64,000 nt of DNA from contig NC_087245.1 of NCBI RefSeq assembly GCF_037042905.1, positions 35,280,001 to 35,344,000 of the forward strand, in the 5' to 3' direction. A program made the translations under genes and the position numbers. This DNA comes from Lytechinus pictus. Lineage: Eukaryota. Under the pieces are notes generated by a model that did no database searches, was not told where the DNA came from, and saw nothing but the letters and a program-made list of their open reading frames with translations. This document shows positions 1 through 45,716 of the stretch, one piece after another. The stretch's first letter is position 1. The number at the start of each line of letters is the position of its first letter.

Positions 1-961
1 TATTAAAGCCAAATATTGATTGTCTGATCGTTTACATTGACGGGAGGCTCAATGACTTTTTCTCCATGAAGTAGACCTATTTTGATTTTTTTTAGCATCA
101 ATAACTACCATGTCCATTATCTGAAATGTGATCTCCTTTTCATTACCTCCTTCCTCCTAAATTCATCTTAAACATCCAAAATAACAACAACGGACAAAAT
201 AAAATGATTGGAAAGTAAAAACAGATAATTTCGATTAATTGGCAGGACGATTAATGTTGCCCAGTACGCGCCATTAATGAAGGGCCTCCGTTTCCTAGAA
301 ATAGGTCAATCCGAGAAGTCAACGAACTTTCTGACGTGACATCACAATGCGATGTGCGCAGAGTGAAAACTTTCAGCCAATCAGGGCGCGGTAACCAAGA
401 GAATGGCCACGGCGCACCTGTTTGTTTACTTTTTTTGCATATGGCCTAGACAAGCAATACGGATGTTTCATTCTCGTATAATGGACTTTCAGACACTGAC
501 TTGGGCTTTTATTCATGGAACTTACCTCACATTATCACAAGTCTTATTAATAAGGAAACTTCAAGTCGTTCGCTTTTTAAGAAAGAGGGAAAAGGAAGGG
601 GGAAAGGAATGTGTTTGAGGTAAATGATAAACACATTACATTCACGAATTTTATTCATTATTTTCGGAAAAGGTGTTTTTTTCAAGGTTAATAACAATCA
701 TTTTTCACATCTGTTAAATGCTAGTGTATCATTGACTGTTTTATTTTAATACTTATTTAACCTTCATTGTTCTCAACCTCAAAATATGATAAAAGAAAAG
801 TCGATTATTACTACTGTACTTATTTGATCGCTTCTAGTTTATTTTCTACTTACATTATATAGTTAACCAACATTGTATATTTACTTACTCTATAGTCCTA
901 CTACTTCTACCGCTACTGACAAGACTGATATCACTGCAACAATAATGCTTTAACTTTGTTT

Positions 962-1259
962 CCTACTACTACTACTATTACTACTACTACTACTACTACT
1001 ACTACTACTTCTACTACTACTACTACTACTACTACTATTATTACTACTACTACTACTACTACTTCTACTACTACTACTTCTACTATTACTTCTACTACTA
1101 CTACTACTACTACTACTATACTACTACTACTAATAATAATAACAATTCTACTACTACTATTACTACTACTACTACTACTACTACTACTACTACTACTACT
1201 ACTACTACTAACAATAATAATATCAATTCTACTACTACAACAACTACTACTACTACTAT
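962..1259. repeat. Compound (CTA/ACT)n microsatellite with (TAA)n interruptions; one block per array unit (first copy shown)
   Basis: Runs of ACT interrupted by TTC, ATT and AATAATAACAATT; ~300 bp in most units, ~630-1130 bp in others. Confidence 0.98.
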
Positions 1260-1910
1260 CCATGCAGAAAAGAAGGAAGGTAAATGATATTCATTCGACC
1301 CAACCAAATTATCCAAAACTTTTAATTTGATAATAGCTAATTGACAAAATTGCATGCCTATTCATGATTCGTCATCTTACTCTGATTCTAGGAAAGGCAA
1401 TCACTGACCTTCCTTTGTCCAAAGGAGTGAGAAATATTGAGAAATATCTCTTTGCTTTTTGAACTATATTTAACTGGCGGAGGAATTAGGGCGCTATTTT
1501 ACCTTTTCAAGCGAAGAATGAGATGTCCTCATGATTACGGGATATTTTCAAAAACGTTGATTTATTTTCGAAATCATCTGGTCGGACGACATAATTTTTA
1601 TATACGCTTTGCTGGTAAGATTATATGAAAAGTCAGATACTGGTAGAAATAATTTGTTCCTCTAATTTCATTCTAATATTTCCAAAAATGAAAATTAAAA
1701 TGAAAATAAAGAGCTGTATTTACACACAAAGTCATTGTGTCTGTGGGGGAAATGGAAATGTTTATGCTCGTGGCGTCAGTTGTCGTTACAGATAGCTCAC
1801 ACAATTTTAGATCACTTAAACAAGATCATGTAATAATGAATCCGAATTCTTTTTATGAGACGCGGTTCAACGTAGTCATGAGACAGACATCGAGATTGCC
1901 AATCTTAAGT

Positions 1911-41200: not shown

Positions 41201-44200
41201 GAGGAATTAGGGCGCTATTTTACCATTTCAAGCAAAGAATGAGATGTCCTCATGATTACGGTATGTTTTCTTAAAAAACATCGATTTATTTTCGAAATGA
41301 ACTGGTCGGTCGGCATATATACGCTTTTCTGGTAAGATTATATGAAAAGTCAGATACTGGTAGAAATAATTTGTTCCTTTAATTTCATTCTAATTTTTCC
41401 AAATATGAAAAATAAAATGAAAATAAAGAACTGTTTTTACACACAAAGCCATTGTGTTTGTGGGGGAAATGGAAATGTTTATGCTCGTGGCGTCAGTTGT
41501 CGTTACAGATAGCTCACACAATTTTAGATCACTAAAACAAGATCATGTAATAATAAATCCTTAATTTTTTTATGAGACGCGGTTCAACGTAGTCATGAGA
41601 CAGACATCGAGATTGCCAATCTTAATTTTAAAGGGATGGTCCAGGCTCGAGATATTTGTATCTCAATAAATAGAGCAAAATGCTGGAAATTTGAACAAAA
41701 TCGGATAACAAAACGAAGTTATTGAAATAATTTAAAGATTTTGATTATTCCGGTAAAACAATTTTAGGCATGTCTTCGTTAATTTTCATTAGATGGGCTG
41801 ATGATGTCATATCCCTATTTGTTCATCAGCCCCGGTCGACCCCTCCCCCCCAACAAAAAAGAATAAAGGAAAATTTATATTAAACAGATAATCAGAATTC
41901 GAGAAGAGAACAAACTTCCTTTCACTATTAAAGGCAAATATTGATTGTCTGATCGTTCACATTGACGGGAGGCTCAATTACTTTTTTCCATGAAGTAGGC
42001 CTATTTAGATTTTTTAGCATCAATAACTACCATGTCCATTATCTGAAATGTGATCTCCTTTTCATTACCTCCTCCCTCCTAAATTCATCTTAAACATCCA
42101 AAATAACAATAACGGACAAAATGAAATGATTTGAAAGTAAAAACAGATAATTTCGATTAATTTGCAGGACGATTAATGATACCCAGTATACATACGCGCC
42201 TTTAATGACGGGCCTCTGGTTCCTAAAAATAACGGGTCAATCCGAGAAGTCAACGAACTTTCTGATGTGACATCACAATGCGATGTGCGCAGAGTGAAAA
42301 CTTTCAGCCAATCGAGGCGCGGTAACCAAGGGAATGGCCACGGCGCACCTGTTTGTTTACTTTTTTTTGCATATGGCCTGGACAAGCAACTACGGATGTT
42401 ATATTCTCGTTTAATGGACTCTCAGACACTGACTTTGGCTTTTATTCATGGAACTTACCTCACGTTATCACAAGTCTTAATAAGGAACTTCTAGTCGTTT
42501 GCTTTTTCAGAAAGAGGGAAAAAAAGGGGGAAAGGAATGTGTTTGAGGTAAATGATAAACACATTACATTCTCGAAATTTATTTATTATTTTTTGGAAGA
42601 GAATTTTTTTTTTCAAGTTTACTTACAATCATTTTTCACATCTGTTAAATGCTAGTGTATTATTGATTTTTTAAAATACTAATTTAACCTTCATTGTTCT
42701 CAACCTCAAAATATGATAAAAGGAAAGTCCATTATTACTACTGTAGGCCTACTGATTTGATCGCTTCTAGCTAATTTTCTACATACACTATATAATTAAC
42801 AGACATTGTATATTTACCTACTCTATAGTCCTACTACTTCTACCGCTACTGACATGACTGATATCACTGCAACAATAATGCTTTAACTTTGTCTTCTACT
42901 ACTACTACTACTACTACTACTACTACTACTACTACTACTACTACTACTACTACTACTGCTACTACTACTTCTACTACTGCTACTACTACTACTACTACTA
43001 CTATTACTTCTACTACTACTACTACTACTACTAGTACTACTACTACTACTAATACTAATACTATACTACTAATAATAAAAACAATTCTACTACTACTATT
43101 ACTACTACTACTACTACTACTACTACTACTACTACTACTACTACTACTACTTCTACTACTACTACTACTACTACTACAACTACTACGACTACTACTACTG
43201 CTACTGCTACTTCTACTACTACTACTACTACTACTACTATTACTACTACTACTATTACTTCTACTACTACTACTACTACTACTACTACTACTACTACTAC
43301 TACTACTAATACTATACTACTACTACTAATAAAAACAATTCTACTACTACTATTACTACTACTTCTACTACTACTACTACTACTACTACTACTACTACTA
43401 CTACTTCTACTACTGCTACTACTACTACTACTGCTATCACTTCTACTACTACTACTACTACTACTACTACTACTACTACTACTACTACCACTACTACTTC
43501 TACTACTACTACTACTACTAGTACTCCTACTACAACTACTCTTACTATACTACTACTACTTATAAAAATAACAATTCTGCTACTACTACTACTACTACTA
43601 CAACTACTATTACTATACTACTACTACTTATAATAATAACAATTATACTACTACTACTACTACTACTACTACTACTACTTCTACTCGTACTTCTTCTACT
43701 AGTACTACTACTATCCATGCAGAAAAGAAGGAAGGTAAATGATATTCATTCTACCCAACCAAATCATCCAATACTTTTAATTTGATAATATCTGATTGAC
43801 AAATTTGCATGTATAATTAAGATTCGCCATCTTACACTGACTCTAGGAAAGGCAATCAACGACCTTCCTTTGTCCAAAGGAGGGAGAAATATATCTTAGC
43901 TTTTTGAACTATATATATGACTGGCGGAGGAATTAGGGCGCTATTTTACCGTTTCAAGCAAAGAATGAGATGTCCTCATGATTACGGTATGTTTTCTTAA
44001 AAAAACATCGATATATTTTCGAAATGAGCTGGTCGGTCGGCATATATACGCTTTTCTGGTCAGATTTTTTGAAAAGTCAGATACTGGTAAAAATAAATTG
44101 TTCTTCTTATTTTATTATAATTTTTCCCAAAATGAAAAATAAAACGAAAATAAAGAACTGTATTTACACACAAAGTCATTGTGTCTGTGGGGAAAAAGGA

Positions 44201-45716
44201 AATGTTTATGCTCGTGGCGTCAGTTGTCGTTAGAGATAGCTCACACAATTTTAGATCACTTAAAGAAGATCATGTAATAATAATTCCTAAAAATTATTAA
44301 TTGAATGAGACGCGGTTCAACATAGTCATGAGACAGACATAGAGATTGCCAATCTTAAGTTTAAAGGGATGGTCTAGGCTGGAGATATTTGTGTCTCAAT
44401 AAATAGAGAAAAATGTTGGAAATTTGAACAAAATCGGATAACAAAACGAAGTTATTGAATTTTAAAGATTTGGATTATTCCGGTAAAACAGTTCTAAGCA
44501 TGTCTTCGTGTATATCATATCCCTACTTGTTCATCAGCCCCGGTCGACGCCCCCAACCAAAAAAAAGAATAAAGGAAAATTTATATTAAACAGATGGTCA
44601 GAATTCAAGAAGAGAACAAACTTCCTTTTCACCATTAAATGCAAATATTGATTGTCTGATCGTTCACATTGACGGGAAGCTCATTGACTTTTTTTCCATG
44701 AAGTATTTAGATTTTTTTAGCATCAATAACTACCATGTCCATTATCTGAAATGTGATCTCCTTTTCATTACCTCCTCCCTCCTAAATTCATCTTAAACAT
44801 CCAAAATAACAATAACGGACAAAATAAAATGATTGGAAAGTAAAAACAGATAATTTCGATTAATTGGCAGGACGATTAATGATGCCCAGAAGACATACGC
44901 GCCTTGAATGACGGGCCTCTGGTTCCGAGAAATAGGTCAATCCTAGAAGTCAACGAACTTTCTGACGTGACATCACAATGCGATGTGCGCAGAGTCAAAA
45001 CTTTCAGCCAATCGGGGCGCGGTAACCAAGGGAATTTCCACGGCGCACCTGTTTGTTTACTTTTTATTGCATATGGCCTGGACAAGCAATACGGATGTTT
45101 TATTCTCGTTTAATGGACTCTCAGACACTGACTTTGGCTTTTATTCACGGAACTTAACTCACATTATCACAAATCTTAATAAGGAAACTTCAAGTCGTTT
45201 GCTTTTTCAGAAAGAGGGAAAAAAGACGGGGGAAAGGAATGTGTTTGAGGTAAATGATAAACATATTACATTCACGAATTTTATTCATTATTTTCGGAAG
45301 AGAATGTGTTTTTTTTTCCAAGTGTTATTACAATCATTTTTCACATCTGTTAAATGCTAGTCTATCATTGATTGTTTTTTTTTTAATCTTCATTGTTCGC
45401 AACCTCAAAATATGATTAAAGGGAAGTCCATTATCACTACTGTAGGCCTACTGATTTGATCGCTTCTAGTTTATTTTCTACAGACACTATATAGTTAACA
45501 GACATTGTATATTTACCTACACTATAGTCCTACTACTTCTACCGCTACTGACATGACTGATATCACTGCAACAATAATGCTTTAACTTTGTCTTCTACTA
45601 CTACTACTACTACTACTACTACTACTACTACTACTACTACTACTACTACTACTACTACTACTTCTACTTCTACTACTACTACTACTACTACTACTACTAC
45701 TACTACTACTACTTCT
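35281..45716. repeat. Diverged edge copies of the array unit
   Basis: Same unit order but many substitutions and indels (e.g. GTATAATTAAGATTCGCC vs GCCTATTCATGATTCGTC) and irregular microsatellites. 38503-40380 and 43712-45590 are near-identical at lag ~5209. Confidence 0.93.

What the first reader, a model, noticed from the sequence alone, without database searches (positions are those of the whole stretch)
1..45716. Uncharacterised 2.19-kb macrosatellite array ending ~10 kb downstream of a UBF-like gene
Seen: at least 20 tandem copies of a complex unit, most nearly identical, with no credible ORF and no rRNA, snRNA, tRNA or histone sequence I can recognise. Known: arrays of 1-2 kb units with microsatellite spacers are how snRNA, 5S and histone genes are often organised in animals. 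Inference: it may carry an unrecognised ncRNA or regulatory module, or be a recent neutral amplification. The proximity to the gene for the rDNA-array-binding factor UBF is notable but may be coincidence.
Basis: partly seen in the sequence, partly recalled or inferred. Interest (0 to 1): 0.7.

Follow-up and report, generated by a model that had tools for sequence, protein, structure and literature searches.

The report
Microsatellite-bounded 2.2-kb macrosatellite beside UBF
This is a real run of at least twenty 2.2-kb DNA copies, most likely ordinary non-coding DNA with transposon scraps that was multiplied by mispairing at its simple-repeat ends; no known RNA or protein gene was found in it, though a tiny hidden exon in each copy is not excluded.

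Summary
The array is real: 19 complete ~1.9-kb bodies plus a partial one cut by the window edge, each followed by a (CTA)n tract (133-1139 bp); modal period 2190 bp. Fifteen inner copies differ by 1.6% on average and are recombinant mosaics with an exact three-unit higher-order repeat; the four right-edge copies are 6-8% diverged. The array ends exactly at the end of a CTA tract, 10 kb from the stop codon of a UBF-like gene. Rfam, ARAGORN, Pfam, frame tests and covariation found no gene. Public DNA contigs of one coded organism (3 studies) hold a homologue along the whole unit at about 91% identity and low depth, except a ~200-bp very high-copy dispersed element and a moderately repeated CCAAT-bearing piece. 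Best reading (0.72): a locus-specific macrosatellite born by unequal exchange between CTA tracts and homogenised from the centre, like the GAT-bounded duplications of sea urchin SpTrf genes but without a gene. Live rival (0.15): one 12-nt symmetric microexon per unit, behind the AG-free CTA tract. No RNA data were reachable. Nothing ties the array to UBF beyond position.

The parts
1..45716 (.). Tandem array, 19 complete units plus one partial; open at the left window edge
1..35711 (.). Homogenised inner part (partial u0, u1-u15): types A and B and mosaics, mean pairwise divergence 1.6%
8024..21763 (.). Three-unit higher-order repeat: exact 7164-bp match at offset 6576 (u4-u6 = u7-u9, tracts included)
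36303..45587 (.). Diverged edge copies u16-u19 (6-8% from the inner copies; u17 and u19 1.3% apart)
29428..31332 (+). Reference body (u13, commonest type), 1905 bp
31333..31617 (+). Example interrupted (CTA)n tract between bodies, 285 bp; the 20 tracts range 133-1139 bp and fall in all three length classes modulo 3
30080..30276 (+). Piece of a very high-copy dispersed element, starting sharply at a TTAA; likely the end of a non-autonomous DNA transposon (class recalled, not tested); present in every unit
   Evidence: summed depth 87,000-1,200,000 against mostly under 350 elsewhere; 154-173 contigs per run with loose ends at 30080; for the letters
30644..30835 (.). Moderately repeated CpG-rich piece with CRE-like, CCAAT and RFX-half-site-like motifs and a hairpin that is not conserved
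   Evidence: (depth 610-5170)
29437..29448 (+). Candidate 12-nt purine microexon (AG before, GT after), invariant in 19 of 19 copies; donor reads GC in u16 and u17; untested
6471..6726 (-). 256-bp insertion private to u3, ending (minus strand) in AATAAA plus a short tandem tail; likely a retroelement 3' end (recalled pattern)
45595..45713 (+). Terminal CTA tract, the purest of the 20 (0.96 against 0.84-0.89); unique sequence follows directly
55705..63020 (-). 3' part of a UBF-like gene (HMG boxes, acidic tail); neighbour, not part of the array

Best explanation
A locus-specific, likely non-coding macrosatellite: a 1.9-kb stretch of likely intergenic DNA with transposon scraps, lying between (CTA)n microsatellites, was likely duplicated by out-of-register exchange between the tracts and then amplified and homogenised by further unequal exchange and gene conversion. 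Shown: the repeat structure, recombinant mosaic units, the higher-order repeat, the centre-to-edge divergence gradient, the array end at a tract, and the dispersed-repeat content. Inferred: that the first duplication used the CTA tracts, that the inner amplification is younger than the edge copies, and that the unit has no selected function. UBF is a neighbour by likely coincidence.
For: Array ends exactly at the end of a CTA tract, which make up only 13-19% of its length. Tracts vary 133-1139 bp and carry internal duplications. Four-gamete incompatibility among 171 sites rises from 10% (<300 bp apart) to 37% (>1500 bp), and units switch type mid-body. Inner copies 1.6% apart, edge copies 6-8%, the pattern reviewed for array ends (PMC5615363, passage). 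Variable sites 271 of 1905, chi-square for uniformity P 0.073, lowest windows P 0.08-0.58. 11 of 39 indels are multiples of three; 10 of 11 shared open stretches have more amino-acid-changing than silent codons. 0 of 41 hairpin pairs compensated. No Rfam, tRNA or Pfam match. Organism A holds the unit over 30 of 30 bins at about 8.6% substitutions (21 of 32 listed pieces), no better than edge versus inner copies, and at low depth outside two dispersed repeats. u3 tolerates a 256-bp insertion, u16 a 78-bp deletion. CpG o/e 0.93, like the intergenic flank (0.93) and unlike the UBF side (0.41). Precedent in sea urchins: GAT-bounded tandem duplications (PMC3091723, PMC5103432, passages).
Against: The 50-80 bp on both sides of the tract vary less than expected (3 variable sites against 14; nominal P 5e-5, about 0.06 after allowing for a scan of the unit); local conversion from the tracts would explain it, but so would selection on splice signals. 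The first AG after the tract opens a 12-nt frame-symmetric exon candidate, which 1-2% of AGs in the unique flank do (noticed after the fact). The CCAAT piece is slightly less variable than expected (P 0.07-0.09). Uniformity is only just not rejected (P 0.073). Several diverged copies appear to exist in organism A too, so the multi-copy state has lasted some time. A 7.2-kb exact repeat could be an assembly duplication.
Confidence: 0.72

Rival explanations
1. Hidden microexon array: each unit is an intron plus one 12-nt symmetric exon on the + strand, spliced from a distant branch point just before the CTA tract, which acts as an AG-exclusion zone; a gene starting left of the window would gain about 15-19 four-residue charged repeats (EKKE, KRRK or RKEG type, depending on phase).
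For: Exon and acceptor invariant in 19 of 19 copies; donor GTAAAT is also used by a UBF exon here; AG-free spans of 339-1207 nt with 2-3 branch-point-like motifs before the tract at all 15 inner junctions; both tract flanks under-variable; such a candidate follows 1-2% of flank AGs; distant-branch-point exons with AG-free zones up to 400 nt are known (PMC1431707, abstract); earlier AI notes report a 21-nt microexon array elsewhere in this genome (lead only).
Against: All four edge junctions have a lesion: GC donor in u16 and u17, an earlier AG in the tracts before u18 and u19. A symmetric open candidate of similar score occurs in 37 of 100 shuffled units. A CTA tract is AG-poor by composition, and 4 of 16 G's in edge tracts made an AG. 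Three branch-like motifs against one expected per 60 bp is not significant. No convincing + strand internal exon between the array and UBF (3 candidates, 2 loci, none recognisable). CpG profile is not that of a methylated gene body. Splice scores use approximate, recalled weight matrices.
Confidence: 0.15
2. Array of an undescribed ncRNA gene or of a promoter/enhancer module centred on the CpG-rich CRE/CCAAT piece (30644-30835), organised like RNU2 or 5S arrays.
For: Motif cluster; minus-strand fold z -3.45 to -4.2, the lowest of 60 windows; slightly low variability (P 0.07-0.09); piece repeated at moderate depth in organism A; RNU2 units also carry a microsatellite (PMC4132748, reference title seen).
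Against: Fold lost in u17 and u19 (z 0.3 and -0.1); 0 of 41 compensatory pairs, 6 pairs broken; no Rfam match; no A/B box, Sm site or histone stem-loop pattern (recalled patterns); a near-identical CCAAT 19-mer sits mostly at the end of one dispersed repeat in AT-rich metagenome contigs, with no homology past 20 bp (118 loci), so the motif alone is no sign of a promoter.
Confidence: 0.08
3. The inner part is inflated by assembly error; the true locus has only a few diverged copies.
For: Exact repeats of 7164 and 3166 bp; no listed run holds more than 6% of the unit's words; organism A shows low depth.
Confidence: 0.05

Closest known systems
GAT-STR-bounded tandem segmental duplications of the SpTransformer (Sp185/333) D1 genes, Strongylocentrotus purpuratus (PMC3091723, PMC5103432; passages read)
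   Same: Kilobase tandem units delimited by a trinucleotide microsatellite, near-identical copies, transposon fragments nearby, STR-mediated mispairing proposed as the cause.
   Different: Those units are about 4.5 kb, 2-3 in a row, and each carries an intact two-exon immune gene; here 2.2 kb, at least 20 copies, (CTA)n tracts, no recognisable gene, and a clear centre-to-edge gradient.
Macrosatellites such as human D4Z4, DXZ4, NBL2 (PMC8122249, passages) and RNU2 (PMC4132748, passages)
   Same: Unit over 1 kb, tens of tandem copies at one locus, concerted evolution, embedded microsatellite that varies faster than the unit (RNU2; title of Liao and Weiner 1995 seen in the reference list).
   Different: RNU2 carries U2 snRNA and D4Z4 carries DUX4 (recalled); no such cargo found here; AT-rich (about 34% GC); population copy-number variation untested.
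Transposon-derived satellites (PMC9659126, passages)
   Same: Unit contains pieces of dispersed non-autonomous elements.
   Different: The pieces make up about a fifth of the body; the rest is low-copy in organism A, and the unit ends are microsatellites, not element termini.

Membership tests
Macrosatellite | Head-to-tail units longer than 1 kb, many copies at one locus | tested here: met
Macrosatellite | Concerted evolution: homogenised, recombining copies with diverged ends | tested here: met
   (only the right end is in the window)
Macrosatellite | Copy-number variation between individuals | not testable with these tools
   no run of the same organism listed; contig depth is no copy number
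STR-bounded tandem duplication (SpTrf type) | Duplicated segment delimited by the same STR at both edges | tested here: inconclusive
   right end lies at a CTA tract; left end outside the window, no genome held
STR-bounded tandem duplication (SpTrf type) | Intact gene inside each unit | tested here: not met
snRNA/5S/tRNA/histone gene array | Recognisable RNA or histone gene in the unit | tested here: not met
snRNA/5S/tRNA/histone gene array | Gene segment more conserved than spacer, with compensated structure | tested here: not met
snRNA/5S/tRNA/histone gene array | Discrete transcript | not testable with these tools
   no RNA holder listed
Microexon array | Symmetric open exon with splice sites kept in all units | tested here: inconclusive
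   intact at 15 of 19 junctions, lesions at the 4 edge ones
Microexon array | Spliced transcript and flanking coding exons | not testable with these tools
   no RNA run; upstream DNA not held; no convincing downstream exon
Transposon-derived satellite | Monomer is mostly an element or bounded by its termini | tested here: not met
   high-copy pieces cover about 200 + 190 bp of 1905; no terminal inverted repeats at the unit ends

The most novel reading that the evidence does not exclude
The macrosatellite is a coding microexon array in which a (CTA)n microsatellite serves as the AG-exclusion zone of a distant-branch-point 12-nt exon, so that the same repeat both drives unit amplification and sets up splicing, tuning the length of a charged four-residue repeat in an unknown protein; the edge copies would be decayed exons.
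Probability: 0.15. Interest if true: 0.7.

Novelty: new member of a known kind. Interest (0 to 1): 0.27.

Why it matters
As read here it is an ordinary but clean example of a macrosatellite caught between birth and homogenisation: microsatellite-bounded unit, diverged edge, mosaic core and an early higher-order repeat in 46 kb. It extends the microsatellite-bounded duplication idea, proposed for sea urchin immune genes, to a unit without a gene, which suggests a general mutational bias rather than an immune-specific device. It would matter much more if the 12-nt exon proves real.

Tried and rejected
No whole genome held, so the left end and other loci of this genome could not be examined. Sequencing-run search: 6 runs listed, all DNA, shares 0.05-0.06; no RNA holder listed, which says nothing about expression. 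Pattern searches: 0 hits in viral contigs and in metagenome contigs; a second, degenerate pattern gave 118 loci, of which none aligned to the unit beyond 20 bp. Two-exon mini-gene after the CCAAT box: 78 codons open in 10 of 20 copies, frameshifted or stopped in the other 10; its first exon has no Pfam match and no protein candidate among 32-104-residue proteins. Mucin-like exon across the CTA tract: stops in all three frames in 18 of 18 junctions tested. Whole unit as a microsatellite-targeting mobile element: rejected because unit ends are identical in all copies and most of the body is low-depth in organism A. The bacterial promoter/terminator scan is at chance level and irrelevant to an animal. 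The UBF exon search returned one unnamed partial match and did not name the species. Paper searches found nothing on sea urchin macrosatellites, sea urchin UBF or a named TTAA element for the high-copy piece; the library lacks most subscription papers, and no supplements were read. Earlier-findings look-ups near the locus, by sequence and in relatives were empty.
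Full report
Observation. The window's first 45.7 kb are a tandem array. K-mer offsets peak at 2190 bp. Anchoring on the tract borders gives 19 complete bodies of about 1905 bp and a partial one at 1-955, each followed by an interrupted (CTA)n tract of 133-1139 bp. The array runs off the left edge; no whole genome is held. To the right lie 4-5 kb of repeat-rich unique DNA, including a reverse-transcriptase fragment, and then the 3' part of a UBF-like gene on the minus strand, whose stop codon is 10.0 kb from the array end. 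The organism is an animal; earlier AI notes on this genome call it a sea urchin, which I did not test.

Internal history. The 15 inner complete copies differ by 1.6% on average and fall into types A and B with mosaics; the four right-edge copies are 7.9% from them and 5.9% from each other. Units 4-6 and 7-9 are identical over 7164 bp, tracts included, a three-unit higher-order repeat. Units switch type in mid-body, and four-gamete incompatibility among 171 informative sites climbs from 10% to 37% with distance, so copies recombine. Homogeneous centre with diverged ends is the reviewed expectation for unequal exchange (PMC5615363, passage). 14 of 19 bodies are distinct sequences, which argues against a mere assembly loop, though the exact inner count is unverified. 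The array ends exactly at the end of a tract, the shortest and purest one; tracts are 13-19% of the array's length. This suggests, on one boundary only, that the founding duplication used two CTA tracts.

What the unit is made of. One search of sequencing runs listed six DNA runs of one coded organism with 5-6% of the unit's words. Four of the six (three samples, three studies) were laid on the reference body at 80% likeness. All 30 bins are covered in all four runs. Pieces differ by about 8.6% substitutions (21 of the 32 listed pieces; I left out the 8 rows of the run that repeats a sample, 2 rows on the dispersed repeats and 1 second piece of the same stretch). At the 40 listed difference sites (282 more not shown) the edge copies carry that organism's letter at 14-19 sites, type A at 7, other inner copies at 0-2 (the reference has 0 by construction). 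So the edge copies keep older states and the inner types are derived. Depth is low over most of the body, with one to four contigs per listed site, a weak hint that the organism has a few diverged copies and no large homogeneous amplification; contig depth is not a copy number. Two pieces stand out. At 30080-30276 summed depth is 87,000-1,200,000 and 154-173 contigs per run leave the unit at 30080, at a TTAA: a fragment of a very abundant dispersed element, probably a non-autonomous DNA transposon end (class from recall; one search found no paper naming it). At 30644-30835 depth is 610-5170: a moderately repeated piece, which holds the CRE-, CCAAT- and RFX-like motifs. The first bin (29428-29491) is also raised (640-1520) and is unexplained. 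Unit 3 has a private 256-bp insertion that looks like a retroelement 3' end, and unit 16 a 78-bp deletion.

Tests for a cargo. No Rfam family, tRNA or Pfam domain. Variable sites (271 of 1905 among six lineages) are not distinguishable from uniform (P 0.073). Of 39 indels 11 keep frame, as chance predicts; of 11 open stretches shared by seven lineages, 10 have more amino-acid-changing than silent codons and the eleventh (5 silent, 4 changing) overlaps the transposon end. A two-exon 78-codon frame exists in only 10 of 20 copies and its first exon finds no protein. The best fold (minus strand, 30688-30807, z about -3.5 to -4.2; flank control minimum -2.8 of 64 windows) disappears in u17 and u19 and shows 0 compensatory changes in 41 pairs, with 6 pairs broken; six close sequences give this test little power. 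A near-identical CCAAT 19-mer is mostly the end of one dispersed repeat in AT-rich metagenome contigs, with no further homology. CpG o/e is 0.93 in the unit and in the flank up to 50 kb, and 0.41 beyond, where the UBF transcription unit probably lies; CpG sites in the unit do not mutate faster than other C/G (12% against 10%). The array therefore looks unmethylated and intergenic.

The signal against neutrality. The 50 bp on each side of the tract hold 3 variable sites where 14 are expected (nominal P 5e-5; about 0.06 when any 120-bp window may be the minimum). Gene conversion starting in the tracts would give this. But the right flank also contains a 12-nt purine segment between an AG and a GTAAAT donor, invariant in 19 of 19 copies, at the first AG after a 339-1207-nt AG-free span that begins with branch-point-like motifs. 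That is the anatomy of distant-branch-point exons (PMC1431707, abstract), and 1-2% of AGs in the unique flank open such a candidate. Against it: I noticed it after the fact; 37 of 100 shuffled units contain some symmetric open candidate; the four edge junctions each have a GC donor or an earlier AG; CTA tracts are AG-poor anyway; no convincing downstream exon was found; the scoring matrices are approximate and recalled. I give it 0.15. No RNA run was available to test it.

UBF. Nothing found links the array to UBF: no rDNA sequence, and the array lies beyond the CpG step at about 50 kb. Position alone is weak, since UBF acts as a protein in the nucleolus and not in cis (established knowledge).

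Comparison. The closest precedent is the GAT-bounded tandem duplication of SpTransformer D1 genes in the purple sea urchin, for which STR-mediated mispairing was proposed (PMC3091723, PMC5103432; passages); those units carry a gene, these do not appear to. By unit size and concerted evolution it is a macrosatellite (PMC8122249, PMC4132748; passages). It is not a transposon-derived satellite in the strict sense (PMC9659126; passages), as element pieces are about a fifth of the body. I found no description of this array in the searched library, which lacks most subscription journals.

Verdict. Real array, most likely a neutral microsatellite-bounded macrosatellite (0.72); microexon array 0.15; ncRNA or regulatory array 0.08; assembly inflation 0.05. 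New member of a known kind; interest 0.27.

Noticed in passing
window 47966-48892 (-): 308-codon open fragment of a LINE-type reverse transcriptase (Pfam RVT_1, E 8e-15) between the array and UBF.
   Followed up: partly
window ~50000: Sharp step in CpG o/e from about 0.9 to 0.3-0.6, suggesting that the methylated UBF transcription unit has a 3' UTR of about 5 kb.
   Followed up: partly
window 57794-58466 and 56840-57254: A 70-bp x 9.7 minisatellite (with a 139-bp dimer period) and a 163-bp x 2.6 repeat inside the last UBF intron.
   Followed up: no
window 6471-6726: 256-bp insertion in unit 3 only, with a weak match (43 bp, E 0.004) at 56645-56687 in the UBF intron.
   Followed up: partly
window 29428-29491: First 60 bp of the body have about ten times the neighbouring depth in organism A; cause unknown (low-complexity matches or further loci sharing the exon-like end).
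   Followed up: no
window 47080-47700: Local tandem duplication of about 310 bp in the flank, seen in the sequence.
   Followed up: no
L001-L118: Most metagenome hits to the CCAAT pattern are the terminus of one abundant dispersed repeat in AT-rich, animal-like contigs.
   Followed up: no
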